Part shown: positions 21,261 to 59,232 of the stretch, in pieces
How the letters are laid out: each line of letters begins with the position of its first letter
Numbering within the stretch: position 1 is the first letter of the stretch
Assembly: GCA_019661895.1 (NCBI GenBank)
Contig: JAIFWO010000001.1
Span: forward strand, 1,181 to 65,180
DNA: 64,000 nt
DNA from: Candidatus Parcubacteria bacterium
Lineage (GTDB): Bacteria > Patescibacteriota > Minisyncoccia > Phycocordibacterales > Zambryskibacteraceae
Reading direction: 5' to 3'
Translations under genes and position numbers: made by a program
Notes under the pieces: model-generated
The model's database searches: none
What the model saw: the letters and a program-made list of their open reading frames with translations, nothing else
Told to the model about the DNA's origin: nothing

Positions 21261-21655
21261 GCTTACAAATATTGTAGCACCTGTTTGACAAAAACAAACT
21301 GTTTGTATAGAACAGAGCTAGCGAACGCTCATTGGAGAGGCATATGCGCCAAAGGGTAAGGAACGAGGATATCTACGACCCCAAGCTCCTTCGGAAGAAA
21401 AAGGGGCATCGTCAAAGCAAGGTGCAGGTCTGGAGGCAACTGCCAGTCAAATGGAGAATTGTCATGGCGGCAAGCGTCCTTGGTCTCTTTGGAGGGCTTA
21501 CTTATTTGTCCTTTAAGCCTAACGGCTTATTCTCGAGGACGCAGAACCTCTTCGCACAACAAGTAGACAGGATCACGCCGCACCACAAGCACCGCACCAC
21601 CTCAAGCAAGAAAGCGCCTGTACACGAATCGGGTCCGTAACCACGGGCCTTTTTG

Positions 21656-24436: not shown

Positions 24437-25000
24437 TTATTCTTCTTTAAGCACGATAATCTCCCCTTCCTTGCCCTCCAAATCCTTCTTCTTGATCACG
24501 AGTTTCTCTAAGGGGCTTGCTACCTCGCTGCCGCCCTCCTTCAGAAACTTTTTCAAGCTCTCTTTATCATAATGCATCGGGATAGAGATGCTCGGCTCGA
24601 GCGAGACGGCGAGCTTGTACGCGCCCTCGGGCGTGAGCGTATCAACCGGCACGAAGAGGATATCAATGTCCTCGAGGTGCTCCTTGGTCTCCTTAGGCAA
24701 CTCGGCTTGGGTGAGCGGTCCCAAGAAGCACATATTCATCCCCTCGAAGCTCACCATATAGATGGTGTTGATGCGCTCACCGCTTTTAGAAAGGAAGCCT
24801 TTAATGCCAATATCCTTCACCTCATACTCGCCGGGGCCGTTGACGATAAAGCCTTTGCCCCCGCCGGCAAACTCGGAGGAGCTTATGAGAGTGATATCCG
24901 AGGCGCTGCGCGAGTTGGTGGGGTTGACTGAAATAGAGAGCTCGCCTTGAGAGATTTTGAAGGCTTCGCCTCCTTGGTACGTGACTATCATAATCCTCAT
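24437..25000 (-). CDS. MBL-fold-like protein lacking the canonical His metal-binding motif
   Basis: The layout resembles UPF0173/MBL hydrolases (MIVTYQGGEAFKIS...IDILFVPVD). The HxHxDH motif is not evident. Confidence 0.3.
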   Translation of the reverse strand: MRIMIVTYQGGEAFKISQGELSISVNPTNSRSASDITLISSSEFAGGGKGFIVNGPGEYEVKDIGIKGFLSKSGERINTIYMVSFEGMNMCFLGPLTQAELPKETKEHLEDIDILFVPVDTLTPEGAYKLAVSLEPSISIPMHYDKESLKKFLKEGGSEVASPLEKLVIKKKDLEGKEGEIIVLKEE

Positions 25001-25080
25001 TTTAGCATAAAATCCGAGCTTTTACCAGCCATTTTGTGGTATAAAAGGACTAGAACTGTTCCCCATCTCACGGAGGCGAG

Positions 25081-25473
25081 ATGCCATACCTAGCTCGCAA
25101 GATAGGTCGTGACTCCGCAATCATTTTTGCCATTGTGGTTGTCCTCATCTTCGCCTTGGCTCGACTTTCAAAAGCCCAAGAGCCGGCAAGGGTGGCGCGA
25201 GACACGACCACGACGAAGATCTGCGCCCAGTTTATAAGTCTCGGTGATCCATTTCTGGAATCCGACAACACCATCGCTCTCTTTGTCAGACGTGATGGTA
25301 ACAAGGACACGACGCTTCTCGCGCCGAGAAGAGTCTACAATCGGCATCAGATCATCTTGCTGAATTGGTACAATTTCGTCTACGCCGACAATGAGCTTGT
25401 CGACTACAAGGTCTTACCGTTCCGCCGTAAGTGTCCGGAGACATATCAGGCCCAAGCGACCCCTACTCCGTAG
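25081..25473 (+). CDS. hypothetical secreted/anchored protein
   Basis: ORF with an N-terminal hydrophobic segment. Confidence 0.3.
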   Translation: MPYLARKIGRDSAIIFAIVVVLIFALARLSKAQEPARVARDTTTTKICAQFISLGDPFLESDNTIALFVRRDGNKDTTLLAPRRVYNRHQIILLNWYNFVYADNELVDYKVLPFRRKCPETYQAQATPTP

Positions 25474-25501
25474 GGGTCTTTTTATGACTTTATAGATGTG
25501 C

Positions 25502-25530
25502 TTGACAAGAAATTAGAATAGGTGTATAAT
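25502..25530 (+). promoter_or_regulatory. consensus sigma70 promoter (TTGACA-17-TATAAT)
   Basis: Both hexamers are perfect with a 17-nt spacer. It drives the 25537-25896 transcript. Confidence 0.55.
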
Positions 25531-25536
25531 AGTACA

Positions 25537-25896
25537 AGAGTGGATAACCCTCTGGCACAGCTGTAGAGCTAGTGCTAGTGTAGTCCATAGACCCGTTCCT
25601 CAATCAACCCATCGACAAATGGAGGCTCGACGTTCACCCAAGGCCAACCTTGGGCTCGCAACTACTCCCACCGATGAATCGCGCTACCGGTCCTTACGTA
25701 GTCCTCACCTCCAAACCGGTGCGCACCGCGACAACCGAGAAAAATCGTTTGATTCAGCTCGCAGACGCGAGCCGGCAGTCAGAGGCCACTGAGCCCGGGT
25801 GCCCGCGATCGACTTCAGAAAGTCCGATCGCGGGCCTACCCAAACGCGAAGATCCAACCCCACCCACCCACGCATTGCGTGGGCTTGTTATTTATG
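25537..25896 (+). ncRNA. candidate ~360-nt GC-rich non-coding RNA or structured rpsA leader, bounded by consensus promoter and intrinsic terminator
   Basis: No convincing ORF lies within it. A perfect 15-bp hairpin sits at 25801-25835, and a terminator (cccacgc-att-gcgtggg plus a T-rich tail) sits at 25867-25896. Confidence 0.4.
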
Positions 25897-25992
25897 TTAA
25901 TTTAACTTGGTTCTTTATTACCCCCGCTTTTCGTATCCCCTCTTGCTTCGGCAACCATTCATAAGCCAGAGGGCCGGGAGCGGCTCAAACAT

Positions 25993-27087
25993 TTGAACGA
26001 TACACAAACACTCGACCCCGTAAACAGCGAGGTCATGCAGAAATTAATGCTCGAGGTCCCCGAGCCACCCAAGCTCGATGACGTCATCGAGGGACCCGTC
26101 ATAGCCATAGACAAGGGCGCGGTCTATATTGACCTGCCCCCCTTCGGCACCGGCATCATCTTCGGCCGAGAGTTCATGAACGCTCGCGACATTATCAAGA
26201 AGATCAATGTGGGCGACACGGTAGCCGGCAAAGTGGTCGGCATGGGCGGCCTTGAAGGCTACATCGAGATCTCTCTCAAGGAGGCCCGCCAAGCGCTCAT
26301 CTGGAGCGAGGCTGAGGAAGCTATCCGCGAGAAGCGCGTATACGAACTGGCTATTACCGACGCCAACAAGGGCGGACTGATCATCAATTGGCAAGGCATC
26401 CAGGGCTTCCTCCCCGCTTCTCAACTCAAGCCGGAGCACTATCCTCGCATCGCCGATGGAGACAAGGATAAGATCCTCGACGAATTGAAGAAGCTCGTGG
26501 GCGTGAAGCTCTCCGTCACTATCATCGGCGCTACGCCGAAGGAGGGCAAATTGATCTTCTCTGAGAAGTCGCCTGAGACCAAGAATAAGGAAAATATTAT
26601 TGCCAAGTATACGCTTGGCGACGAAGTAATGGGAGAAGTGACGGGACTCGTCGACTTCGGCATCTTCGTCAAACTTGAAGAGGGCTTGGAGGGCTTGGTA
26701 CACATCTCGGAGATCGATTGGGGCTTGGTCGAGAATCCGAAGGCTATGTTCAGGATCGGCGAGAAGGTCAATGTCAAGATCATCGAGATCAAAGAGGATA
26801 AGATCTCCCTCTCTATCAAGGCCTTGAAGGAGAACCCTTGGAAGGAAGCCTCCGAGAAGTATAAAAAGGACGACGTGGTCGACGGCGTGATCATCAAGTA
26901 CAACAAGCACGGCGCCTTGGCCTCGATCGAGGAGGGTGTGGCCGGCTTGGTCCACGTCTCGGAGTTCGGCTCGGAAGAGAAGTTGAAGGAGAAGCTCGAA
27001 ATGGGCAAATCCTACCCCTTCAAGATCACTCTTTTCGATCCTAAGGAGCAGAAGATGGCTTTAAGTTTCGTAGAGAAAAACAAATAG
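25993..27087 (+). CDS. rpsA: 30S ribosomal protein S1 (reduced, ~4 S1 domains)
   Basis: Repeated S1-domain signatures are present (GxVxGxV...GLVHISE...). Confidence 0.85.
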   Translation: MNDTQTLDPVNSEVMQKLMLEVPEPPKLDDVIEGPVIAIDKGAVYIDLPPFGTGIIFGREFMNARDIIKKINVGDTVAGKVVGMGGLEGYIEISLKEARQALIWSEAEEAIREKRVYELAITDANKGGLIINWQGIQGFLPASQLKPEHYPRIADGDKDKILDELKKLVGVKLSVTIIGATPKEGKLIFSEKSPETKNKENIIAKYTLGDEVMGEVTGLVDFGIFVKLEEGLEGLVHISEIDWGLVENPKAMFRIGEKVNVKIIEIKEDKISLSIKALKENPWKEASEKYKKDDVVDGVIIKYNKHGALASIEEGVAGLVHVSEFGSEEKLKEKLEMGKSYPFKITLFDPKEQKMALSFVEKNK

Positions 27088-27110
27088 AAAATAGTTAATA
27101 AGAAATAACA

Positions 27111-27140
27111 AAAACTCTGGACTCTCCAGAGTTTTGTTAT
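27111..27140 (+). terminator. intrinsic terminator of rpsA
   Basis: The hairpin aaaactctgga-ctc-tccagagtttt is followed by gttattt. Confidence 0.65.
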
Positions 27141-27374
27141 TTGGTCGAAAGGGGTTATGGTAGAACCAGACACAACAGTGGAGATCCCATGGACGCAGAA
27201 TGGATCGTCGAATATGACGGACGCCCGCGCGGTTGGATCCGCGAACATCACGGACAAGTGACCATCCCGGGAGAATCGGAGGAGGTCGTCCGCCGAAGAG
27301 CGGAGGCCGACCTCGGCAAAGATTACATCATCACCAAGATATATCGGGATACCAAATCCAGCACCACGGCCTAG
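27141..27374 (+). CDS. hypothetical small protein (77 aa)
   Basis: Good SD (aaagggg) and ATG. First gene of the small-gene cassette region. Confidence 0.4.
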   Translation: MVERGYGRTRHNSGDPMDAEWIVEYDGRPRGWIREHHGQVTIPGESEEVVRRRAEADLGKDYIITKIYRDTKSSTTA

Positions 27375-27434
27375 CCGCGGTTTTATTTATACTACGATAT
27401 ATCGTAGTGACAATGATAAAGAAAAGCCCATCTC

Positions 27435-27662
27435 TCATTTTGAAAGATGGGCGCGGAAGAGGTGCGTGAGCGGCGGGCTCCAGAGGTTCGTGCCCTCGTG
27501 CTGGAAATAGCCTTGCAATTTCTGCACACGGCACTGCTCGCACTTAGCGTCAGTGCAATCATCCATGTGCATGGCGTTCACGAATACGATGACCGGATTC
27601 GTATCCATCGGCGGAATATCCGGACACATTGTTGCGTACTGCACAGCCAAGTGGACTGACAT
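27435..27662 (-). CDS. small Cys-rich hypothetical protein (75 aa)
   Basis: It has its own TTGACT-16-TATAAT promoter (minus strand, 27690-27717), RBS AGGAG and a downstream terminator at 27385-27430. The Cys cluster reads C..DDCTDAKCEQC. Confidence 0.45.
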   Translation of the reverse strand: MSVHLAVQYATMCPDIPPMDTNPVIVFVNAMHMDDCTDAKCEQCRVQKLQGYFQHEGTNLWSPPLTHLFRAHLSK

Positions 27663-27689
27663 GGGCGATCTCCTGTTGAGTCTGGCGCA

Positions 27690-27717
27690 ATTATACTAAT
27701 TTTATAAATTAAGTCAA
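27690..27717 (-). promoter_or_regulatory. sigma70-like promoter for the 27662 gene (TTGACT-16-TATAAT on minus strand)
   Basis: Sequence read as the reverse complement of 27690-27717. Confidence 0.5.
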
Positions 27718-27732
27718 GAAAAGCCGCCCATA

Positions 27733-27963
27733 TCAGGCGGTCGATTCCGACTCCTTCATGATCAAGAAGATGGCTATCGAGGCGTTGTGTGCGCACTTGT
27801 CATTCCAGCACTTATCGCACACGCGCTTTCCACTACCATCATCGTAGAACGCCGCATCCTTCCTCGTAAAATCTTTGACACGGCAGATACCACAGCGGAC
27901 AATCTCCGTATCCTTAAACTGTGCCACCGCATCGCGGTAAGCGGTCGAACGCGGGTTACTCAT
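27733..27963 (-). CDS. small Zn-ribbon protein (CxxC...CxxC), 76 aa
   Basis: The first pair reads RCGICRV and the second RVCDKCWNDKC. A terminator follows. Confidence 0.45.
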   Translation of the reverse strand: MSNPRSTAYRDAVAQFKDTEIVRCGICRVKDFTRKDAAFYDDGSGKRVCDKCWNDKCAHNASIAIFLIMKESESTA

Positions 27964-28001
27964 ACTGCCTCCCCTCTAGTCTGCATTCAGAATATGCCTA
28001 T

Positions 28002-28058
28002 TTGTAAAAACTTCAATGGAGTGATAGGGTCGAGATAGACCCCTATACCGAGGACACA
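28002..28058 (+). promoter_or_regulatory. cassette promoter/leader L1 (TTGTAA-17-TAGGGT; GGTC-N6-GACC; GAGGA RBS)
   Basis: It is homologous to L2 over about 50 nt. Confidence 0.45.
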
Positions 28059-28625
28059 ATGCACATCCTTCTACCGAAGATTTATCCAGCCTCCCTACCT
28101 GGCCGTTACACTTTCTTCTTGCTTGGACCCATTAAAGGCGGCGGAGCGTGGCAACACACTGCTTGTCTCGAGCTGAAGAGGCTGATACAACAAGAGCCGT
28201 TACAAACGGAAGACTTCACTGTCGTCGTCCCATGCCGCTGGCAAGCCGATCATGCACTTGCACAATATTTTATCCCTGGTATTCCTCGAGATGTACGCCA
28301 GACTGACTGGGAACGTACTTACCTAGAGAAAGCGGCTACGGACACCTGCGGTTGTATCATAGGCTGGTTGCCCTGCGAGGATAAAATAAATCCTCGTAAC
28401 GACGGTCAGCCATACGCACGAGATTCATACGGTGAGATTGGTGAGTGGAGAGGGAGGATGATGTGCGACAAGACCTTGCACTTTTGCCTCGGCGCAGAAG
28501 AAGGCTTCCCGGGCCTCGATGTGATGAAGAGCAATTTCGAACTAGCTCTCAACCGTCGGTTCACTATCTACGGAAGTCTGGACGAAACGCTTCAGAAGGC
28601 TTATGAGATTGTCGATCCTGCTTAG
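28059..28625 (+). CDS. hypothetical protein with nucleoside 2-deoxyribosyltransferase-like / SLOG-like N-terminal motif (YTFFLLGPIKGGG)
   Basis: The assignment rests on motif resemblance only. Confidence 0.3.
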   Translation: MHILLPKIYPASLPGRYTFFLLGPIKGGGAWQHTACLELKRLIQQEPLQTEDFTVVVPCRWQADHALAQYFIPGIPRDVRQTDWERTYLEKAATDTCGCIIGWLPCEDKINPRNDGQPYARDSYGEIGEWRGRMMCDKTLHFCLGAEEGFPGLDVMKSNFELALNRRFTIYGSLDETLQKAYEIVDPA

Positions 28626-28645
28626 AAATTAAGTGGGATTTTTGT

Positions 28646-28699
28646 TTGCAAAAATTCAATCAGATGATAAGGTCAGAATAGACCAACAAGTGAGGAACA
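28646..28699 (+). promoter_or_regulatory. cassette promoter/leader L2 (TTGCAA-17-TAAGGT; GGTC-N6-GACC; GAGGA RBS)
   Basis: It aligns with L1: aaaa-TTCAAT-..GATArGGTCnnnaTAGACC..GAGGA.CAATG. Confidence 0.45.
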
Positions 28700-29155
28700 A
28701 TGATTACTTATGCAGAGACCCAAATCGCGCCTGAGGATCTCGTTCTCTTCAGATCTATCCGGCATACAGTAAACCATCTCCCGCAACTTGACCTCGGTGC
28801 CACGAAGGATGGAAACGACGTCGAAATGTCATGCCACCTGCTTGCCGAGGCCGTTGCTCGAGTATGGAACCTCGAGGTTGCACATGGCGTCTTCCTTAAA
28901 GGATACAACCACAGCTGGACAGTCACCTCTAACAAAAATGTCATCGATGTGTACCCGGTGGCATCAGTTGGAGGGCCAATAATTTACGACGGATCAGCCC
29001 TGACGGTTCTCCGTCAACTATTCAATCCCTTCTCGCCGTCCAATATCGAAGCGAGGTATGGGAAAGACTTTGGGAGCATGTGGTTTGAAAGGGCTGTTGA
29101 CACCTTGGCTCTCCAACTCCACAAACTTTCACGCCTCTCCCCCGCTCAGCAGTAA
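28700..29155 (+). CDS. hypothetical protein (151 aa)
   Basis: ORF with RBS. A terminator (cccgctc-agcagtaa-gagcggg + T-run) follows. Confidence 0.4.
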   Translation: MITYAETQIAPEDLVLFRSIRHTVNHLPQLDLGATKDGNDVEMSCHLLAEAVARVWNLEVAHGVFLKGYNHSWTVTSNKNVIDVYPVASVGGPIIYDGSALTVLRQLFNPFSPSNIEARYGKDFGSMWFERAVDTLALQLHKLSRLSPAQQ

Positions 29156-29197
29156 GAGCGGGGATTTTTATTTTGTGATACCTTAATACGCAGAATT

Positions 29198-29620
29198 TTG
29201 TACACTCACAGGAGAAGTGGCATGACTCATCAGGCACCAAACGATCGCAACGACATGTTCGTGTTCGTACTCCTCATGGAGTCAGGGAAATATACGCTCT
29301 CGTACGAAATCATTCAGAGCATGATCCATCCCTTCAAAGCGGCCTTAAGGCTCCAAGGCGTAAGAGTAAACGGTCTGGAACGGCAAACGGTTCACGAAGC
29401 TCTGGTAGAGGCTGTCGATCTGGGCCTTGCCCGACACTCTCGAGAAAACTCTTTGAACGTGTACTGGGTCAACAATGAGTTAATCAAAGAGTATATGCTG
29501 CGAGCTCATAGCGATCTGACTGCTGAAGAGCTTGCGTTCGCCAAGGAAGCGGCGAAGATTGCTGTTGCAAACACCTTTAGACCAAGGGTCAATGGCACAA
29601 AGAAACTGCCCGCTCTCTGA
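29198..29620 (+). CDS. hypothetical protein (140 aa)
   Basis: ORF with RBS AGGAG. A terminator follows at 29622-29645. Confidence 0.4.
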   Translation: MYTHRRSGMTHQAPNDRNDMFVFVLLMESGKYTLSYEIIQSMIHPFKAALRLQGVRVNGLERQTVHEALVEAVDLGLARHSRENSLNVYWVNNELIKEYMLRAHSDLTAEELAFAKEAAKIAVANTFRPRVNGTKKLPAL

Positions 29621-29633
29621 GCGGGTTTTTTAC

Positions 29634-29694
29634 TTGCAAAACTTATAAAAGTATGGATATATATGTCTAGACAGACCCCACCAGAGGAGAACTC
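29634..29694 (+). promoter_or_regulatory. cassette promoter/leader L3 (TTGCAA-17-TATATA; palindrome GTCTAGAC-AGACC; GAGGAG RBS)
   Basis: The AGACC element is shared with L1 and L2. Confidence 0.45.
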
Positions 29695-30123
29695 ATGAGC
29701 CACCCGGGAGGAAAGTCCTTGGAGGCAAGTGAAGTCTGCCTCCTCTTGCTACAATGCTTCGACGAAGAGAATGTCGCCGACATCGAAGTGGATGGATTGA
29801 CTCATGCGTTCGGCTACCTCATTAACCTGCTCCTCGAAGCTGGCGTCATCAAGAAGTCTGGCCTGACGTATAGGCACGAGCCATTCAGATATGAGGTCGT
29901 CACGGCGGTGATCGAGAACCTGGTTGAGAAAAAGATCGCCACCGTAAGTCACGAGGGCCACACTGAGATGCTCGAGCTTGGTCCTGGCACTTGGGGTCGC
30001 ATCGAATCGCTTCTTCGGGAGCGCGGGATGTCGGCTGAGGACAAGCGAGCGTATCTGCCGTATTGCCGCAAGGCCTTCCAATACTACAAGGGCGACATAC
30101 GCTCTTACGGCTGCGATGAATGA
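29695..30123 (+). CDS. hypothetical protein (142 aa)
   Basis: ORF. A terminator (ctgcgat-gaatg-atcgcag + T6) follows. Confidence 0.4.
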   Translation: MSHPGGKSLEASEVCLLLLQCFDEENVADIEVDGLTHAFGYLINLLLEAGVIKKSGLTYRHEPFRYEVVTAVIENLVEKKIATVSHEGHTEMLELGPGTWGRIESLLRERGMSAEDKRAYLPYCRKAFQYYKGDIRSYGCDE

Positions 30124-30137
30124 TCGCAGCTTTTTTA

Positions 30138-30207
30138 TTGCAAAATTACTTAAAGTGTGGTTAAATATGAAAAGACAGCACCCATCATCTTCTTGCCAGG
30201 TGAGACA
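30138..30207 (+). promoter_or_regulatory. cassette promoter/leader L4 (TTGCAA-17-TTAAAT; AGACAGCACCC; GGTGAG RBS)
   Basis: Same design as L1-L3. Confidence 0.45.
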
Positions 30208-30651
30208 ATGCCGACAACACCCACTCACTCTCTTATCGACGCACTTCCCGAGAGAGACCAGCGCCGCTTCACCTTCATGCTTGAAGCGCTCTTCGACCTC
30301 TGGAAAAACAATCAATCGAGCATCGAGCGGCCCCTCTTCAGTCGGATGCTCAGAGAAGTCCTCAGGTATGTGCCGGCTGCCTACCGAACAGCTCTCGGCT
30401 CATTGGTCCACGAAAGTGATCCTTGCGACAAAGCCCTCGTCATCTTGCTTGAGGAAGCAACACGACTCGGATTCATCCGCTTCGACGCGGATCACGACAC
30501 TATTTATCTCAACAGCGAGATGATAGTGGGCCTCCGAACATTTCTCAATCAAGGAAAAAGGTTTTACCTCGACATTCTGGGTCCCATTCGGATAGGCATC
30601 AAATACTACCTGCGAGAGATTGCTCTTGAAAGCCGCCGCGACGATACTTAG
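30208..30651 (+). CDS. hypothetical protein (148 aa; start moved to ATG after RBS GGTGAG)
   Basis: The tracked ORF begins at 30157. The promoter -10 lies inside that extension, so the internal ATG at 30208 is preferred. Confidence 0.4.
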   Translation: MPTTPTHSLIDALPERDQRRFTFMLEALFDLWKNNQSSIERPLFSRMLREVLRYVPAAYRTALGSLVHESDPCDKALVILLEEATRLGFIRFDADHDTIYLNSEMIVGLRTFLNQGKRFYLDILGPIRIGIKYYLREIALESRRDDT

Positions 30652-30662
30652 TCGCGGTTTTT

Positions 30663-31190
30663 CTATGAATTAAACTGGGTCATGGCCGTCTGGAGACCCT
30701 CGGCAGAGAGAGTCTCGACCGCTTCGACGACTCTCTTCAAAACCTTTTTAAATATGAGCGCCTCTTTGGGAGAAAACTTTCCTAAGATATGGCGCTCCAC
30801 ATTCTTCTCGCCCAAAGGCTTTTTAATTTTGCCGCTAGGCGTCACAGGCGAAATGCCGATGCGAACACGGATAAAAGCCTCTGTCTTAAGCGCTCTGATG
30901 ATAGATTCGATGCCTTTGTGCCCGCCTGAGCCGCGATTGTAAGAAATCTTCATGGTTCCAAGCGGCAAATCGAGATCATCATAGATAATCACGAGCTTCT
31001 CGGCAGCCTTTTTGCTCTTTATTACCTTAGCCACGCCGCTTCCGGATTTATTCATGAAGGTGTCGAGAGAGATGAGCTTGATACCGTCGATTTCCTTCTT
31101 CGACAAAGCCTCGAGAGCCATGCGGCCTGTGTTATGGCGAGTCTCGGCGTAGGCCTCACCGGGGTTCCCGAGCCCAACGATTGTGTACAT
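30663..31190 (-). CDS. pth: peptidyl-tRNA hydrolase
   Basis: The N-terminus reads MYTIVGLGNPGEAYAETRHNTG. Overall Pth fold. Confidence 0.85.
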   Translation of the reverse strand: MYTIVGLGNPGEAYAETRHNTGRMALEALSKKEIDGIKLISLDTFMNKSGSGVAKVIKSKKAAEKLVIIYDDLDLPLGTMKISYNRGSGGHKGIESIIRALKTEAFIRVRIGISPVTPSGKIKKPLGEKNVERHILGKFSPKEALIFKKVLKRVVEAVETLSAEGLQTAMTQFNS

Positions 31191-31220
31191 TCGATAAGTA
31201 TAATACAATCTAGCGAAATT

Positions 31221-36402: not shown

Positions 36403-36951
36403 ATGACTAATCAACTTATCGAGATCGAGCGCAAGTTCCGGCTGGATAATTTCCATCCGAGCATGATTCCGGCCGATGCAATCCTCACTGAATTGGTACA
36501 AGATTACCTGCTCAGTCCGCCTGGATCGGAGAGGCGTGTACGAGCGATCCAAAGTACCACTGGTATCTGGAAACACATCTACAATGAGAAGGGTCAGACC
36601 GGGGATGTTCGCATACGCACCGAACTGAAACGTGAGTTGAGCGAGGAGGAGTACCGCTCACTTCTAGAAGAAGTGGACCCGCAGCGAGCTACGATTCGTA
36701 AACTTCGGCACACCTTTCCTCACGCTGGTCAGACTCTCGAGCTCGACAAGTATCACGCTATACCAGCTCTTTACATCGTTGAGCACGAGATGGAGCATGT
36801 CGGCGTCGAAGTCGTCAAGCCAGATGGCTGGCAATGGACCGAGGTCACCAACGATCGCGATTATGGTAATTATGCTATTGCTCGGCTCCTCAAGATTGGT
36901 CAAGCGACGAGGCTCGTTAAGACTCCAGCACTTTCTTCCCCACAAGCCTAG
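36403..36951 (+). CDS. CYTH-domain protein (triphosphate tunnel metalloenzyme / class IV adenylate cyclase-like)
   Basis: The N-terminal EIERKF signature is present. The gene is 4 nt downstream of the HD gene. Confidence 0.6.
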   Translation: MTNQLIEIERKFRLDNFHPSMIPADAILTELVQDYLLSPPGSERRVRAIQSTTGIWKHIYNEKGQTGDVRIRTELKRELSEEEYRSLLEEVDPQRATIRKLRHTFPHAGQTLELDKYHAIPALYIVEHEMEHVGVEVVKPDGWQWTEVTNDRDYGNYAIARLLKIGQATRLVKTPALSSPQA

Positions 36952-52821: not shown

Positions 52822-54675
52822 CTATTCCGATCTCATCATCTTCAAAAAGACCTCTTGGGGAATAGCCACCGTGCCCTTGCCGCGCTCGGCCATCTTCTTC
52901 TTACCCTTCTTCTGCTTCTCCCTAAGCTTCATCTTGCGGGTAATGTCACCTCCGTACATGTGCTGGGTGACATCCTTCTTCATGCCTGAGAGTGTTCGTG
53001 AGGCAATGATGCGGCCAAAAGCCTTGGCTTGGATCTTGAGGGTAAACATTTGTCTCGGGAGGAGTTTAGACAGCTTCTCGACCGCTGTCTCTGCTTCAAG
53101 CTCCACCTGCCTTCTGGAAATGACTTTGGCAAAGGCGGCCACTGGCTCGTCGGCTACCACAATGTCCATCCGGGTCACGTCGGCAGCGCGTTCCTCGGCC
53201 ACGTCGTATGAGATAGAGGCAAAGCCCGATGAAGCACTCTTCAATTTATCGAAAAAGCTTCTCATGAGTTCGCGCAGCGGCATGAGGAGAGTGAGCGAGG
53301 TTCTGTCTGCCAGCGTGTGCGTCTCCCCCACCTCGGCCTCATGCTCATAGAGAAGCTGCAAGATTGTTCCCAAATACTCCGGCGGCGTAATGATGGAGGC
53401 CTTGACCCATGGCTCACGCACGCTTGAGACCAAATGATCTTCCGGGAAAAATGATGGAGTATAGATCGTCTCTTCCTTGCCATTTTTGTATGTCACTTTG
53501 TACGTAATAGACGGCAGAGTGATGATAAGCGGCAGGTTAAACTCGCGCCGCAGCCGCTCGCTAATAATTTCCAAATGGAGCATGCCGAGGAAGCCACAGC
53601 GATATCCTCGGCCGAGCACTCCGGAGGACTCTTCCTCAAAGGAGAAGGCCGAGTCGGTGAGCTTGAGACGCAAGAGAGCCTGCTTAAGAAGGGTGAAATC
53701 GTCTTGCGACTCTGGATAGATAGAGGCCCACACCACCGGGCGAGCCTCGCGGTACCCTTCGAGGGCGGGCTCAGTGTCTGAAGCCGCCGAGACGGTGTCG
53801 CCTACCGAGACCACCCCAGGCTCTTTGATCCCGGTGACGATATATCCGATCTCGCCCTCGTTTAAGAATTCGGCCGGCGTCTCTTCGGGAGCGAAGATAC
53901 CCACCTCAAGGGCTTGGAAGGTCTTGCCCGCTACTTTAAATATCAAATTCTCCCCTTTCATGACCTTGCCACGCATCGCTCTCACAAAGACAATCACTCC
54001 CCTATGATTTGAATATTTGAAATCGAAGACCAAAGATCGGAAGGCGCCGAGCGTGTCACGAGAAAAGTCTGGTTGAGCAAGGCGACCCGAAGACTTTTCG
54101 AGAGGCAGGCTCGGCGCTGGAACTTTTGTTACAACAGCCTCGAGAAGTTCTTTTACCCCTTCGCCCGTCTTACCAGAGACTAGCAAAATATCTTTTTCAT
54201 CTACCTCAAGAAGGGTCATGATTTCTTGCTTCACTTCCTCAATCCTCGCTAAAGGTGAATCGATTTTGGAAACGACGGGGATGATGGTTAAGCCGGCCTC
54301 ACGCGCCATGCCAAGGGTGGTCAGGGTCTGAGCTTGTACCCCTTGAGTGGCATCGACAAGTAAGATCGAGCCCTCCACGGCCTTAAGCGCTCTTGAGACC
54401 TCGTAGGAGAAGTCGATGTGCCCGGGGGTGTCGATGAGATTAAGGATAAAATCTGGTCCCTCGCGATGCTCGGGACCTTCAGGATGATAAATCATCCTTA
54501 CGGGTTGCATCTTGATAGTAATCCCCCTTTCGCGCTCGAGCTCCATCGAGTCGAGGACTTGTTCCTTCATCTTCCGCTTCTCGATAGTACCAGTCAGCTC
54601 AAGCATCCTGTCAGCCAAAGTGGACTTGCCGTGATCAATATGAGCAATGATTGAGAAGTTTCGAATATGATCCAT
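52822..54675 (-). CDS. lepA: elongation factor 4
   Basis: The N-terminus reads [23 protein letters not shown]. The LepA-specific C-terminal domain is present. Confidence 0.95.
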   Translation of the reverse strand: MDHIRNFSIIAHIDHGKSTLADRMLELTGTIEKRKMKEQVLDSMELERERGITIKMQPVRMIYHPEGPEHREGPDFILNLIDTPGHIDFSYEVSRALKAVEGSILLVDATQGVQAQTLTTLGMAREAGLTIIPVVSKIDSPLARIEEVKQEIMTLLEVDEKDILLVSGKTGEGVKELLEAVVTKVPAPSLPLEKSSGRLAQPDFSRDTLGAFRSLVFDFKYSNHRGVIVFVRAMRGKVMKGENLIFKVAGKTFQALEVGIFAPEETPAEFLNEGEIGYIVTGIKEPGVVSVGDTVSAASDTEPALEGYREARPVVWASIYPESQDDFTLLKQALLRLKLTDSAFSFEEESSGVLGRGYRCGFLGMLHLEIISERLRREFNLPLIITLPSITYKVTYKNGKEETIYTPSFFPEDHLVSSVREPWVKASIITPPEYLGTILQLLYEHEAEVGETHTLADRTSLTLLMPLRELMRSFFDKLKSASSGFASISYDVAEERAADVTRMDIVVADEPVAAFAKVISRRQVELEAETAVEKLSKLLPRQMFTLKIQAKAFGRIIASRTLSGMKKDVTQHMYGGDITRKMKLREKQKKGKKKMAERGKGTVAIPQEVFLKMMRSE

Positions 54676-54686
54676 GGCACCTTACG

Positions 54687-56366
54687 CTACACGATTTCGG
54701 GATTCTGGGCAATGACTTTGGCCTTCCAGAACTTGGCATGGACAGCTCTCCAGGACTCCGCGAGTTCGCGAGAGCCGAGGAGCCGAAGGACTAAGATCCC
54801 AATGACAATACCTACCATACCCGCTACGAGGCCTTGGAGGAAGATGCCTGGAAGAGTATTGAGGTTAAAGAGCGGCGCGAAGAGGGTAAGAGCAATATGG
54901 CTGGCGTAACCCATAACTACCGAGGCGCTCGAGCATTCAAAGAGAGTCCGCTTAACAGACTTCGAGAATCCGCCATACTCTCGCTCAAAGCCGATCCAGT
55001 GCACCACGCCGTTAATGATCGTACCGACCGAGTAGCCCAAGGGCAGCATAAGCACCGCCGCGCTCCCAGAGAGATCATCGACCTTAAGAAGTGCCGTGAT
55101 GAAATAACGGAAGCCTTCGAAACTGTAAAATACTTTTACAAAGAAATATGTGCAAGCGATCAAGATGCCCGTGGAAGCAAGATTAATAAGCAAGGGCTTC
55201 CTGGTCTGCCCCGCCGAGTAGAAGGCTCTGATGAAAAGAAGTAGCAAACTTTGGAAAAGGGCCGAGACAGAGAAGATGGCCAGGGCGGCGGCGGTGAGTC
55301 GGGTGTCGTCCCAATTGAAGCGGCCCGTGCCGAGGAGCACGCGCACGATCTGCGCTCTTAAGACAATGAAGAGCGCCGTCACCGGCAGAGACCAGAAGAT
55401 GATATGCCGCGTCGTGGTCGCCATCTGTTCGATGAAGCCTTGTATATTTTTCTGCGAGAAGTATCGCGAGAGCGTCGGGAAGACTGCCAAAGAATACGAG
55501 ACTCCGATGATGGAGAGCGGCACCGAAGAAATATTGAAGGAGAAGGAGTATATGGAGATCGACCCGACGGCCATGAGCGAGGCCAAAGAGACTAGAAAGA
55601 TCGTGGATATATGGTTAATGGAGAGCGTCAGGGTGCGCGGGAAGGAGAGCAGCACCACTCTTCGAATGGAAGCGAAGTCGAAGAAGGCCTTGAACCTCGG
55701 CATGAGGCCCATCTTTATCACGTAGGGAATCTGGATAAGGGCATGGAGAAGCGCTCCCAGAGCTACTCCCCAGGCCACGCCCATGACACCGAACTTAGGC
55801 ACAAGAATTAAGACGCCTAGAATAATACCGGCATTGTAGACTACCGGCGCGAAGGCATAGACCAAGAAGCGGTTATAGGCCTGAGTGAGCGAGCCGAAGA
55901 GATTCGAGAAGCCGAGGAATATCGGCGAAAGCAGTAAGATCCTCGAGAGCAAGATGACCTGCGAGAGCGCCTCGCCAGAAAGGCCTTTAAAGAGAATGGG
56001 AGAGAACACCGGGATAAGGAAGTATGCCAGACCGCAGACGATGATGATGAGGAAGGAGAAGAACGAGAAGATATCATTTATAAACTCCTTGACCGCCTCT
56101 CTCCCCTCTTCCTCACGTTCCACGATGAAGGGCACGATCACCGAAAGCGAGACGATCGAGGCCACAGTGACGAACAGGAAGTCCGGAATGCGGAAGGCCG
56201 CGTAGTAGGTATCGAGCTCACTACCGGCACCGAAAACGTGCGCCAGTAAGCGATCTCGCAGGAAGGCCAGCACCTGGCTCAAGAGAGCAAAGAAGCCAAG
56301 AAGATACGCCGCCTGATGGAGAGTGGAGGTCTCCTTATAGAGAAGGGTAAGAAACTTCTTGACCAT
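54687..56366 (-). CDS. murJ: lipid II flippase MurJ (MviN)
   Basis: 14-TM MOP-family organisation, ending FGAGSELDTYYAAFRIPDF. Confidence 0.85.
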   Translation of the reverse strand: MVKKFLTLLYKETSTLHQAAYLLGFFALLSQVLAFLRDRLLAHVFGAGSELDTYYAAFRIPDFLFVTVASIVSLSVIVPFIVEREEEGREAVKEFINDIFSFFSFLIIIVCGLAYFLIPVFSPILFKGLSGEALSQVILLSRILLLSPIFLGFSNLFGSLTQAYNRFLVYAFAPVVYNAGIILGVLILVPKFGVMGVAWGVALGALLHALIQIPYVIKMGLMPRFKAFFDFASIRRVVLLSFPRTLTLSINHISTIFLVSLASLMAVGSISIYSFSFNISSVPLSIIGVSYSLAVFPTLSRYFSQKNIQGFIEQMATTTRHIIFWSLPVTALFIVLRAQIVRVLLGTGRFNWDDTRLTAAALAIFSVSALFQSLLLLFIRAFYSAGQTRKPLLINLASTGILIACTYFFVKVFYSFEGFRYFITALLKVDDLSGSAAVLMLPLGYSVGTIINGVVHWIGFEREYGGFSKSVKRTLFECSSASVVMGYASHIALTLFAPLFNLNTLPGIFLQGLVAGMVGIVIGILVLRLLGSRELAESWRAVHAKFWKAKVIAQNPEIV

Positions 56367-58819: not shown

Positions 58820-58848
58820 TTGCAAAAATTTCAAATTCGTGATATAAT
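58820..58848 (+). promoter_or_regulatory. sigma70-like promoter of rnpB (TTGCAA-17-TATAAT)
   Basis: The -10 hexamer ends 7 nt before the P1 stem. Confidence 0.5.
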
Positions 58849-58854
58849 ACACCA

Positions 58855-59177
58855 TGGTGTCGGGTAACTGCTCCATAGCAATATGGGGAGGAAAGTCCGA
58901 ACATTCAGTCCCGACAGTTTTCTCTCGAGAAAAATCGCCGGGACACAGGTAGCAGGTAACGCCTGCCGAGGGCAACCTTAGAAGTGAGAACAGAAACGAC
59001 CCGGTTCAGTCCGGCTGAAACGCGCAAAATCTTTACCCGAATGCAAGGCCGTGTCATTTGCCTGTATGAAAGTACGGATAAATGAAGTGCCGCTCGATCC
59101 TAACGGTGACGTTGGGACCAGATAAATAGTTACCGTTCCGCTTATAGCGGAATACAGAATTCGGCTTATAGACACCC
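58855..59177 (+). ncRNA. rnpB: RNase P RNA (bacterial, reduced length ~320 nt)
   Basis: P4 reads GGAGGAAAGTCCG. The 3' conserved block reads ACAGAATTCGGCTTATAG. P1 pairs ggtgtc with gacacc. A terminator (atcccgc-gcaa-gcgggat + T-run) follows. Confidence 0.75.
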
Positions 59178-59232
59178 AAAATCCCGCGCAAGCGGGATTT
59201 TGTTTTCTTTCTATTTCTACTTTTTATTTGAG

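What the first reader, a model, noticed from the sequence alone, without database searches (positions are those of the whole stretch)
27141..30651. Array of small single-gene cassettes each with its own sigma70-like promoter, RBS and terminator, sharing a conserved leader motif (AGACC / GGTC-N6-GACC)
Between rpsA and pth lie eight small genes (75-188 aa) on both strands. Nearly every one is followed by a clean hairpin+T terminator, and the five on the plus strand from 28059 are preceded by a TTG(C/T)AA-17-TAnnnT promoter.

The leaders of genes 28059 and 28700 align over about 50 nt (TTCAAT..GATArGGTCnnnaTAGACC..GAGGA.CAATG). Those of 29695 and 30208 retain the AGAC(C/A) element, and L3 carries the palindrome GTCTAGAC. 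This suggests a common operator and regulator and modular duplication of promoter units.

The products are orphans:
- a Cys-rich protein and a CxxC..CxxC Zn-ribbon (27435 and 27733).
- a protein with a nucleoside-2-deoxyribosyltransferase/SLOG-like GP-IKGGG motif (28059).
- four helical proteins of about 140 aa.

The composition looks more GC-rich than neighbouring core genes. I read this as an accessory island of independently transcribed small effectors or immunity-like genes. It could be the undescribed system in the window, but its function is unknown.
Basis: partly seen in the sequence, partly recalled or inferred. Interest (0 to 1): 0.6.

Follow-up and report, generated by a model that had tools for sequence, protein, structure and literature searches.

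The report
Variable small-gene hotspot between rpsA and pth
The eight small genes sit in a gene-turnover hotspot between two conserved housekeeping genes of an uncultured Parcubacteria bacterium; each has its own promoter and terminator, but the supposed shared "operator" is only the ordinary transcription-start motif of this lineage.

Summary
The anatomy is real. Eight small genes lie between rpsA and pth. All eight have hairpin plus U-tract terminators and seven have recognisable promoters.

The window comes from a Zambryskibacteria-like Parcubacteria (CPR) genome. In 76 related genomes the gyrA…rpsA | pth-lepB synteny is fixed, while the rpsA–pth gap ranges from 3 to 5032 bp with mostly unrelated content. 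The "accessory island" reading is therefore supported, as a lineage-wide hotspot. The region is not GC-rich.

The "common operator" is not supported. AGAC lies 6 nt after the -10 hexamer, at the predicted +1. AGA(C) holds that position in promoters of many unrelated genes across the lineage.

The longer leader similarities (g4/g5 and g7/g8) are real duplications of promoter modules, and the same habit appears in relatives.

Contents:
- g5 has a transglutaminase/papain-like fold with a conserved Cys-His-Asp triad.
- g6 and g7 belong to a very divergent ~150-aa family found only in this hotspot.
- g3 is a Zn-ribbon with one relative.
- g1, g2 and g8 are orphans.

Nothing indicates a single co-regulated system, a defence system, an integron or a prophage. 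Stop codons sit inside the terminator hairpin far more often in hotspot genes than in other genes.

The parts
25993..27087 (+). rpsA (ribosomal protein S1), conserved left flank of the hotspot
   Evidence: ORF. 72-88% identical orthologues in 80 related genomes, always followed by pth.
27111..27135 (+). rpsA terminator, an 11-bp stem. Its T-tract runs into the -35 element of g1.
27134..27171 (+). g1 promoter: TTGTTA-16-TATGGT, then N6, then AGAC at the predicted +1 (27168-27171)
27189..27374 (+). g1, a 61-aa orphan (alternative TTG start at 27141 gives 77 aa). Its stop codon lies in an imperfect terminator hairpin at 27363-27381.
   Evidence: Best of six frames. RBS GGAG precedes ATG 27189. 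Only a self hit, P0036 of 61 aa. Hairpin fold.
27435..27662 (-). g2, a 75-aa Cys-rich orphan. Promoter at 27717-27690 (TTGACT-16-TATAAT) with +1 AGAC at 27683-27680. Terminator at 27452-27426 encloses the stop codon.
   Evidence: No self hit in the protein collection, so it was probably not annotated in the source record.
27733..27963 (-). g3, a 76-aa CxxC...CxxC Zn-ribbon-like protein. Promoter at 28016-27989 with +1 AGAC at 27982-27979, back to back with the g4 promoter. Terminator at 27740-27724 encloses the stop codon.
   Evidence: One homologue lies in the same hotspot of L014 (E = 1.8e-5 in a 5242-ORF database).
28002..28041 (+). g4 promoter module: TTGTAA-17-TAGGGT, +1 AGAC at 28037-28040, GGTC-N6-GACC at 28028-28041
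28059..28625 (+). g4, a 188-aa protein with a nucleoside 2-deoxyribosyltransferase-like (PF15891-related) fold. Terminator at 28614-28640 encloses the stop codon.
28646..28684 (+). g5 promoter module, a duplicate of the g4 module: TTGCAA-16-TAAGGT, +1 AGAC at 28680-28683, GGTC-N6-GACC at 28671-28684
28700..29155 (+). g5, a 151-aa protein with a transglutaminase/papain-like fold and conserved Cys45-His71-Asp83. Terminator at 29140-29163 encloses the stop codon.
29222..29620 (+). g6, a 132-aa member of the hotspot-restricted divergent family, with no canonical promoter of its own. Terminator at 29608-29626 encloses the stop codon.
   Evidence: An HMM built from 13 non-window members gives E = 2.7e-5 (22 bits). 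The best reversed-sequence decoy scores 8.8 bits. Terminator.
29627..29683 (+). g7 promoter-leader module, copy 1 of a 57-nt direct repeat. TTGCAA at 29634-29639, palindrome GTCTAGAC at 29665-29672, AGAC at 29669-29672 and 29673-29676.
29695..30123 (+). g7, a 142-aa member of the hotspot-restricted divergent family. Terminator at 30109-30131 encloses the stop codon.
   Evidence: HMM E = 2.5e-3 (15.8 bits). 24% identical relative in L011. No other homologue among 5.8 billion proteins.
30131..30187 (+). g8 promoter-leader module, copy 2 of the 57-nt repeat at 74% identity. TTGCAA at 30138-30143, TTAAAT at 30161-30166, +1 AGAC at 30173-30176.
30208..30651 (+). g8, a 147-aa orphan not recruited to the g6/g7 family. 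Terminator at 30635-30658 encloses the stop codon.
30663..31208 (-). pth (peptidyl-tRNA hydrolase), conserved right flank, convergent with rpsA

Best explanation
The 3.6-kb interval is this genome's copy of a lineage-wide gene-turnover hotspot. It lies at the convergent junction between the core genes rpsA and pth in Zambryskibacteria-like Parcubacteria (CPR). It is a collection of unrelated, individually transcribed accessory genes, not one system.

Each unit is packed to the minimum:
- a sigma-70-type promoter in the lineage's usual form (TTGcaA, 16-18 nt, TAnnnT, 6 nt, then AGAC at +1);
- a leader of 15-35 nt (about 15-25 nt for g1-g5 and g7);
- a Shine-Dalgarno site;
- the ORF;
- an intrinsic terminator whose hairpin encloses the stop codon and whose T-tract abuts the next promoter.

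Contents (fold shown, function inferred):
- g4 is a probable nucleoside/nucleotide N-glycosyl enzyme of the NDT-like fold.
- g5 is a probable Cys-His-Asp peptidase or amidase of the transglutaminase-like fold.
- g3 is a Zn-ribbon protein.
- g6 and g7 belong to a very fast-diverging ~150-aa family seen only at this locus.
- g1, g2 and g8 are species-specific orphans.

The 'AGACC' element is the generic transcription-start motif. The longer g4/g5 and g7/g8 leader similarities come from copying of promoter modules between neighbouring units.

Gain and loss most likely occur by recombination, using the conserved flanks or the similar promoter/terminator junctions as anchors. This step is inferred and was not shown.
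For: Hotspot:
- gyrA-orf111-mbl-rpsA | pth-lepB-hisS-like is collinear in the related genomes.
- The rpsA-pth gap takes 76 values from 3 to 5032 bp. The window's gap of about 3.58 kb is the second largest.
- The gaps hold 98 ORFs. These form 12 small families and 58 singletons, including an IS200-like Y1 transposase in 9 genomes and a CYTH protein in 7.
- g4 and g5 relatives lie in the same gap in L020, L031, L037 and L086. In other genomes they lie at quite different core-gene junctions: lepA|murJ, beside rplL, and beside pilin genes.

Accessory character:
- Codon score is 0.03-0.20 against 0.31 +/- 0.13 for core genes.
- Pfam, PHROGs, NCBIfam and PADLOC give no hits.

Unit architecture.

Generic +1 motif:
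- Across 102 promoter-like sites with a downstream RBS and ORF, in the window plus 80 loci, positions 7-9 after the -10 hexamer are A 63%, G 67%, A 57%.
- AGAC is the top tetramer (18 of 102), upstream of many unrelated genes.

Promoter-module copying:
- g4/g5 z = 9.5 and g7/g8 z = 10.8.
- The same is seen in L084, L013, L037 and L020.
- Within-locus upstream similarity exceeds between-locus similarity (Mann-Whitney p = 8.5e-4).
- g4 and g5 have unrelated folds, so the promoters were copied independently of the genes.

Folds.

g6/g7 family.
Against: - There are no transcript data, so promoters, +1 positions and terminators are sequence predictions.
- g6 lacks a recognisable promoter and may depend on read-through.
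- g1, g2 and g8 have no homologue at all. Their coding status rests on frame preference and on promoter, RBS and terminator context only.
- No recombination event or mobility mechanism was demonstrated.
- The related genomes are one representative per species, so turnover within a species was not observed.
- The promoter profile was built from orthologous neighbourhoods. Some promoters may be counted in several species.
Confidence: 0.72

Rival explanations
1. One reading: the eight genes form one functional system of effector- or immunity-like genes. A dedicated regulator co-controls them through a shared operator (AGACC / GGTC-N6-GACC) in their leaders.
For: - AGAC occurs in 7 of 8 leaders at a fixed distance from the -10 hexamer.
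- GGTC-N6-GACC overlaps the -10/+1 region of g4 and g5, a classical repressor position.
- The composite -35/-10/AGAC pattern occurs 7 times in 64 kb against 1.35 expected, with 5 of them here.
Against: - The same AGA(C) at the same position is the consensus of promoters of unrelated genes across 80 related genomes.
- The enrichment in the hotspot reflects its high promoter density.
- GGTC-N6-GACC is limited to one duplicated promoter pair, and GGTC is replaced by GGTG in the orthologous L031 leader.
- The genes do not co-occur in relatives. g4, g5 and the g6/g7 family travel separately.
- No regulator gene was identified, and no defence-family hit was found.
Confidence: 0.06
2. The array is the decayed remnant of a mobile element (prophage, satellite or IS200/IS605-type element), and the hairpins are element ends rather than terminators.
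For: - An IS200-like Y1 transposase (PF01797) sits directly after rpsA in 9 of 76 relatives. Y1 transposases act on DNA hairpins.
- Every unit here ends in a hairpin.
- One distant g4 relative (27.5% identity, E = 5e-6) lies in a 462-kb uncultured phage, LR756500.1.
Against: - The window has no transposase, integrase or phage gene in or beside the array.
- There is no DNA or g5 match in 50,697 phage records, and none for g4 or g5 in IMG/VR.
- The hairpins share no sequence, are G+C-rich with U-tracts, and sit exactly at gene ends, as terminators do.
- There are no flanking direct or inverted repeats.
Confidence: 0.07
3. Several of the orphan units (g1, g2, g8) are not protein genes. They could be non-coding transcripts or very young (de novo) ORFs bounded by a promoter and a terminator.
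For: - No homologue was found among 1.84 billion cluster representatives, beyond self hits for g1 and g8. g2 gave no hit at all, so it is apparently not annotated in the source.
- Codon scores are low (0.07-0.16).
- Each ORF runs straight into the terminator stem, so the C-terminal residues are encoded by terminator sequence.
Against: - The annotated frame is the best of six in each case.
- Each has a Shine-Dalgarno site at the right distance.
- g3, g6 and g7 looked equally orphan at first but proved to have relatives at the same locus.
- Only hits with E below about 1e-12 were visible for these genes, because the g5 family filled the list.
Confidence: 0.15

Closest known systems
Chromosomal hotspots of gene turnover between conserved core genes (Oliveira, Touchon, Cury & Rocha 2017, PMC5635113)
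   Same: Content is variable and mostly unrelated between fixed core flanks across many genomes. There is no recognisable mobile element in the hotspot. This is the class for which that paper reports frequent homologous recombination at the flanking core genes (abstract).
   Different: The comparison here is across species of an uncultured CPR lineage, not across strains. The insert is tiny (0-5 kb). It is built of single-gene units that each carry a promoter and a stop-overlapping terminator. Recombination at the flanks was not tested.
Integron gene-cassette arrays
   Same: It is a series of short single-gene units. Each ends in a hairpin-forming sequence that overlaps the end of the ORF, and gene content differs between genomes.
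   Different: There is no integrase or attI. The hairpins have no conserved boxes and look like ordinary terminators. Every unit has its own promoter, and units lie on both strands.
PF15891 Nuc_deoxyri_tr2 / structure 4mcj (putative nucleoside deoxyribosyltransferase BDI_0649), compared with g4
   Different: g4 does not reach the Pfam model even at E = 1. It has its own invariant block PYARD-x-YGEIGEWRGR. Substrate and reaction are unknown.
Transglutaminase-like / papain-fold cysteine enzymes (for example TglA, LapG, Atu2299 2hly), compared with g5
   Different: There is no Pfam or PDB sequence-level match. The protein is a minimal ~150-aa stand-alone form. Activity is untested.

Membership tests
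Gene-turnover hotspot between core genes | The same two core genes flank the interval in many related genomes | tested here: met
   rpsA and pth are both present and convergent in 76 of 80 loci.
Gene-turnover hotspot between core genes | Interval content varies strongly between genomes | tested here: met
   Gap is 3-5032 bp. The 98 ORFs form 12 small families plus 58 singletons. Only 5 loci (L011, L014, L020, L031, L037) share any gene with the window.
Gene-turnover hotspot between core genes | Elevated homologous recombination in the flanking core genes | not tested
   This needs strain-level population data, and only one genome per species was available.
Regulon with a shared operator | The motif is specific to the co-regulated genes and absent from unrelated promoters | tested here: not met
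   AGA(C) at the same distance from the -10 hexamer is the consensus of 102 promoter-like sites of unrelated genes.
Regulon with a shared operator | The motif is conserved in orthologous leaders | tested here: inconclusive
   L031 keeps TAGGGT...AGACCCC-ATACC-GAGGAC but loses the GGTC half. L020 keeps little. What is retained is explained by the -10, +1 and RBS elements.
Integron cassette array | Tyrosine-recombinase integrase (IntI) and attI next to the array | tested here: not met
   The flanks are rpsA and pth. None of the eight proteins has any Pfam hit.
Integron cassette array | attC sites with conserved inverted core boxes after each cassette | tested here: not met
   The hairpins are 7-12 bp, unrelated in sequence and followed by U-tracts.
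Anti-phage defence system (PADLOC families) | At least one protein matches a known defence-system model | tested here: not met
   No hit with E < 0.01 for any of the eight proteins, or for o130, the ninth scanned.
PF15891 Nuc_deoxyri_tr2 (g4) | Match to the Pfam model above its gathering score | tested here: not met
   No Pfam hit at E <= 1.
PF15891 Nuc_deoxyri_tr2 (g4) | Same fold as a solved member | tested here: met
Transglutaminase-like / papain-fold cysteine enzymes (g5) | Conserved Cys-His-Asp catalytic triad | tested here: met
   His71 and Asp83 are invariant and Cys45 is conserved in at least 90% of 44 sequences.
Transglutaminase-like / papain-fold cysteine enzymes (g5) | Fold similarity to solved members | tested here: met
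Transglutaminase-like / papain-fold cysteine enzymes (g5) | Sequence-model match (Pfam Transglut_core or relatives) | tested here: not met
   None of the 44 members matches.
Winged-helix DNA-binding proteins (g6/g7 family) | Recognisable wHTH by profile or structure | tested here: inconclusive
   Only a by-eye resemblance (Y-x2-L-x2-L-x3-G-hydrophobic, then a beta-hairpin). The best PDB profile hits are non-significant, for example AdcR at E = 0.39.

The most novel reading that the evidence does not exclude
The rpsA-pth junction of Zambryskibacteria may be a dedicated diversification locus. On this reading, self-contained promoter-ORF-terminator modules are added, copied and swapped by recombination at their similar terminator/promoter junctions, like an integron without an integrase. 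A position-locked, hyper-divergent ~150-aa protein family (g6, g7 and 16 relatives, found only at this locus) would evolve there under diversifying pressure from phages or from the host cells these episymbionts attach to. The stop-in-hairpin terminators would make read-through into the next module depend on translation.
Probability: 0.12. Interest if true: 0.65.

Novelty: new member of a known kind. Interest (0 to 1): 0.35.

Why it matters
The finding turns a suspected 'undescribed system' into something more ordinary and better defined: a hotspot of accessory-gene turnover at a fixed core-gene junction in a CPR lineage that cannot be cultured.

It gives three reusable facts about these genomes:
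- The promoter form, including a strong AGA(C) at the predicted start site.
- The habit of copying promoter modules between neighbouring small genes.
- Terminators that swallow the stop codon.

It also yields three uncharacterised protein families with testable predictions:
- an NDT-like enzyme;
- a minimal Cys-His-Asp transglutaminase-like enzyme, whose family accounts for essentially all of the 279 sequence clusters matched (at least 270);
- a locus-restricted fast-evolving family.

For genome annotators it warns that a motif shared by neighbouring leaders may simply be the local start-site consensus.

Tried and rejected
1. I joined all eight proteins into one query for the word-indexed homologue search. 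It returned nothing. This was an artefact, because g4 alone found 31 relatives, and it cost one of three searches.
2. The same joining trick did work in the exhaustive representative search. However, the g5 family filled the 150-row list, so weak relatives of g1-g3 and g6-g8 (E above about 1e-12) were hidden.
3. Exact-sequence look-ups of g4 and of rpsA found no contig.
4. Pfam, PHROGs, NCBIfam and PADLOC scans of all eight proteins gave nothing usable.
5. All-against-all BLASTP of the eight proteins showed no paralogy. The g6/g7 relation appeared only through profiles built from other genomes.
7. RNA hairpin idea for GGTC-N6-GACC: rejected, because GGTC lies upstream of the predicted start.
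8. Integron, prophage and IS readings: rejected (see the rival explanations and membership tests).
9. Rfam found no RNA family in 24900-30800.
10. Phage and IMG/VR searches were negative apart from one distant g4 hit. Alignments A2 and A3 were too divergent for locus scans.
11. Winged-helix idea for g6, g7 and g8: not supported by PDB profile searches and left open.
12. g8 as a member of the g6/g7 family: not supported (4.1 bits, below the decoy maximum of 8.8 bits).

Full report
**What is there**

Between rpsA (25993-27087, +) and pth (30663-31208, -) lie eight small ORFs:
- g1, 27189-27374 + (an upstream TTG at 27141 is possible)
- g2, 27435-27662 -
- g3, 27733-27963 -
- g4, 28059-28625 +
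- g5, 28700-29155 +
- g6, 29222-29620 +
- g7, 29695-30123 +
- g8, 30208-30651 +

A codon-usage model trained on 27 long genes of the window ranks the annotated frame first of six for all eight. Their scores (0.03-0.20 bits per codon) lie below the core mean of 0.31 +/- 0.13, and below small core genes such as pth (0.38) and lepB (0.34).

The region is not GC-rich. It has 0.49-0.50 GC against 0.52-0.55 on either side, and GC3 is 0.53-0.70 against a core mean of 0.64.

**Transcription signals**

All eight genes end in a stable hairpin followed by a U-tract. The 6-kb scan found 19 terminator-like sites against 5.6 +/- 2.6 in shuffles.

Seven genes have a recognisable promoter of the form TTG(a/c/t)(a/t)(a/t), 16-18 nt, then TAnnnT or a close variant. 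The g2 promoter is near-consensus (TTGACT-16-TATAAT). g6 has none. The T-tract of each terminator runs directly into the -35 element of the next unit.

**The shared motif**

In g1-g5 and g8, AGAC begins exactly 6 nt after the -10 hexamer. In g7 it begins after 5 nt. That is the expected transcription start.

The composite pattern (-35, -10, N5-7, AGAC) occurs 7 times in the 64-kb window against 1.35 +/- 1.15 in shuffles, and 5 of the 7 lie here. Taken alone, that looks like a local signal.

I then collected every strong promoter-like site followed by an RBS and an ORF, in the window and in 80 related loci. This gave 102 sites upstream of membrane proteins, secreted proteins and many other unrelated genes.
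- Positions 7-9 after the -10 hexamer were A 63%, G 67%, A 57%.
- AGAC was the commonest tetramer (18 of 102), followed by AGAA, AGAG and AGAT.

AGA(C) is therefore the lineage's ordinary start-site context, not an operator of this array. Its density here reflects the density of promoters.

**The longer similarities**

- The g4 and g5 leaders align over 43 nt (z = 9.5). The 30-nt consensus is unique to them in the window.
- The first half of that consensus (TTGCAAAAAtTTCAA...TGATA) also resembles the RNase P RNA promoter at 58820.
- GGTC-N6-GACC occurs only in this pair among intergenic sites.
- In the orthologous leader of L031, GGTC has become GGTG, while the -10, AGACCCC and RBS are kept.
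- g7 and g8 share a 57-nt promoter-leader repeat at 74% identity (z = 10.8).

g4 and g5 have unrelated folds (see below), so these are copies of promoter modules, not of whole genes.

The habit recurs elsewhere. In L084 a g4 relative and its unrelated downstream neighbour share a near-identical promoter that differs from the window's. Pairs in L013, L037 and L020 behave likewise. Overall, upstream regions within a locus are more alike than those between loci (Mann-Whitney p = 8.5e-4).

**Where it comes from, and the hotspot**

g4 is identical to a hypothetical protein of a 'Candidatus Parcubacteria bacterium' MAG (locus tag KW785_00205). The closest rpsA genes belong to Zambryskibacteria and other Parcubacteria MAGs.

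In the related loci the order gyrA-orf111-MBL-fold gene-rpsA | pth-lepB-hisS-like is conserved. The rpsA-pth gap takes 76 values from 3 to 5032 bp, and the window's gap of about 3.58 kb is the second largest.

The gaps hold 98 ORFs that fall into 12 small families and 58 singletons. These include an IS200-like Y1 transposase in 9 genomes and a CYTH protein in 7. Only L011, L014, L020, L031 and L037 share any gene with the window.

This is the pattern of a gene-turnover hotspot without a recognisable mobile element. Oliveira et al. described that class and linked it to homologous recombination at the flanking core genes (PMC5635113). I did not test recombination.

**The proteins**

*g4.* It has 31 relatives at 40-59% identity, none annotated. 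They share the invariant motifs FFLAGPI-x-GGG-DWQ, RQTDWER and PYARD-x-YGEIGEWRGR.
- 4mcj belongs to PF15891. g4 itself does not reach that Pfam model.
- From my own knowledge, the G-P-I-x-G-G-G loop and the YGEIGE block resemble the phosphate loop and catalytic-Glu block of DNPH1/Rcl-type dNMP N-glycosidases. This is a lead, not a test.
- g4 relatives sit in the same hotspot in L020 and L031. In other genomes they sit between lepA and murJ, or next to pilin and rhamnose genes.
- One distant relative lies in a 462-kb uncultured phage.

*g5.* Its family accounts for essentially all of the 279 representative clusters matched, with His71 and Asp83 invariant and Cys45 near-invariant.
- There is no Pfam or PDB sequence match.
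- Relatives lie in this hotspot in L037 and L086, and beside rplL elsewhere.

*g6 and g7.* They first looked orphan, and g7 has no relative among 5.8 billion proteins.
- A profile built only from 13 hotspot ORFs of other genomes finds g6 (E = 2.7e-5, 22 bits) and g7 (E = 2.5e-3, 15.8 bits) in a database of 5242 ORFs.
- All 18 hits with E < 0.02 lie in the rpsA-pth gap on the rpsA strand.
- Noise starts at E = 0.6, and the best reversed-sequence decoy scores 8.8 bits.
- The family (alignment A3, mean column identity 25%) occurs as tandem pairs in L011, L014, L024 and the window.
- It matches nothing in Pfam or the PDB, so its fold is undetermined.

*g8.* It is not recruited to that family (4.1 bits).

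*g3.* It has one relative, in the L014 hotspot, that shares the CGIC...VCxxCW pattern.

*g1, g2 and g8.* They have no relatives. g2 seems not even to be annotated in the source record.

**A further regularity**

In all eight genes the stop codon lies inside the terminator hairpin, so the last residues are encoded by the 5' arm.

| Set | Terminators found | Stop codon inside hairpin |
|---|---|---|
| Window, hotspot genes (strict scan) | 7 | 7 |
| Window, other genes | 13 | 3 |
| Window plus 80 loci, hotspot ORFs | 45 | 20 |
| Window plus 80 loci, other genes of at least 120 aa | 166 | 11 |

In E. coli a terminator placed a few bases after a gene is almost fully repressed by the translating ribosome (PMC4824070). 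These terminators may therefore leak when the gene is being translated. That is an inference from another organism.

**Verdict**

The 'common operator and regulator' reading does not hold.

Nothing supports a single functional system, a defence system, an integron, a prophage or a structured RNA.

The most likely account is a set of independent, minimal transcription units carrying unrelated accessory genes. These are gained, lost and re-promoted by recombination at a safe convergent junction.

The open and more interesting possibility is that module copying and the locus-restricted fast-evolving family reflect a dedicated diversification mechanism. I rate that at about 0.12.

Noticed in passing
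window 25502-25895 (between the MBL-fold gene and rpsA); L001 about 9217-9870: A perfect TTGACA-17-TATAAT promoter (25502-25530) with AGA at the predicted +1 (25537) drives about 360 nt with no coding-like ORF. The stretch ends in a hairpin (25867-25883) plus T-run, just before the conserved rpsA leader. It folds far better than shuffles (z = -5.3) and matches no Rfam family. The closest relative, L001, has the same layout: a consensus promoter, about 620 nt without a plus-strand ORF of 50 aa or more, z = -6.65, shared blocks such as GCUAGUGUAGUC.AUAG, and a long 3' hairpin of different sequence. This is a candidate new structured RNA or an attenuator-type rpsA leader.
   Followed up: partly
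window plus loci L001-L080, promoter-like sites: Promoters of this lineage show a strong AGA(C) 6 nt after the -10 hexamer, at the predicted +1 to +4: A 63%, G 67%, A 57% over 102 sites. I found no description of this in a literature search. The sites come from orthologous neighbourhoods, so a genome-wide check is needed.
   Followed up: partly
window 27363-30658; rpsA-pth gaps of L001-L080: Stop codons lie inside the terminator hairpin in 20 of 45 hotspot ORFs with a terminator, against 11 of 166 other genes. In the window the figures are 7 of 7 against 3 of 13. The three other window cases are 21332-21640, 25081-25473 (in the neighbouring variable gap) and 36403-36951.
   Followed up: partly
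window 25000-25993; the same interval in L001-L080: The interval between the MBL-fold gene and rpsA is a second variable gap (67-2225 bp in relatives). In relatives it often holds small genes whose N-termini look like signal peptides or membrane segments. In the window it holds a 130-aa ORF (25081-25473) with a hydrophobic N-terminus.
   Followed up: no
L004, L005, L008, L009, L012, L017, L021, L036, L037, directly after rpsA on the minus strand: A conserved ~220-aa IS200-like Y1 transposase homologue (PF01797, E = 4e-12) occupies the first position of the hotspot in 9 of 76 relatives. It is absent from the window. It could be a domesticated REP-type transposase or a clue to how the hotspot is fed.
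   Followed up: partly
L084 6001-7301 (JGI contig Ga0480574_000002): A g4 relative and an unrelated 198-aa gene are inserted between lepA and murJ, which are adjacent in the window (52822-56366). The two inserted genes share a near-identical promoter. So other core-gene junctions receive the same kind of unit.
   Followed up: partly
window 58856-59180 (+): RNase P RNA (bacterial class A) scores 98.9 bits, just under Rfam's gathering score of 100, so it is missed at the default threshold. Its promoter at 58820 has the TTGCAAAAATTTCAA...TGATATAAT form.
   Followed up: yes
phage record LR756500.1, 46142-46570: A 462-kb uncultured phage encodes a distant relative of g4 (27.5% identity over 84% of the protein, E = 5e-6).
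   Followed up: no
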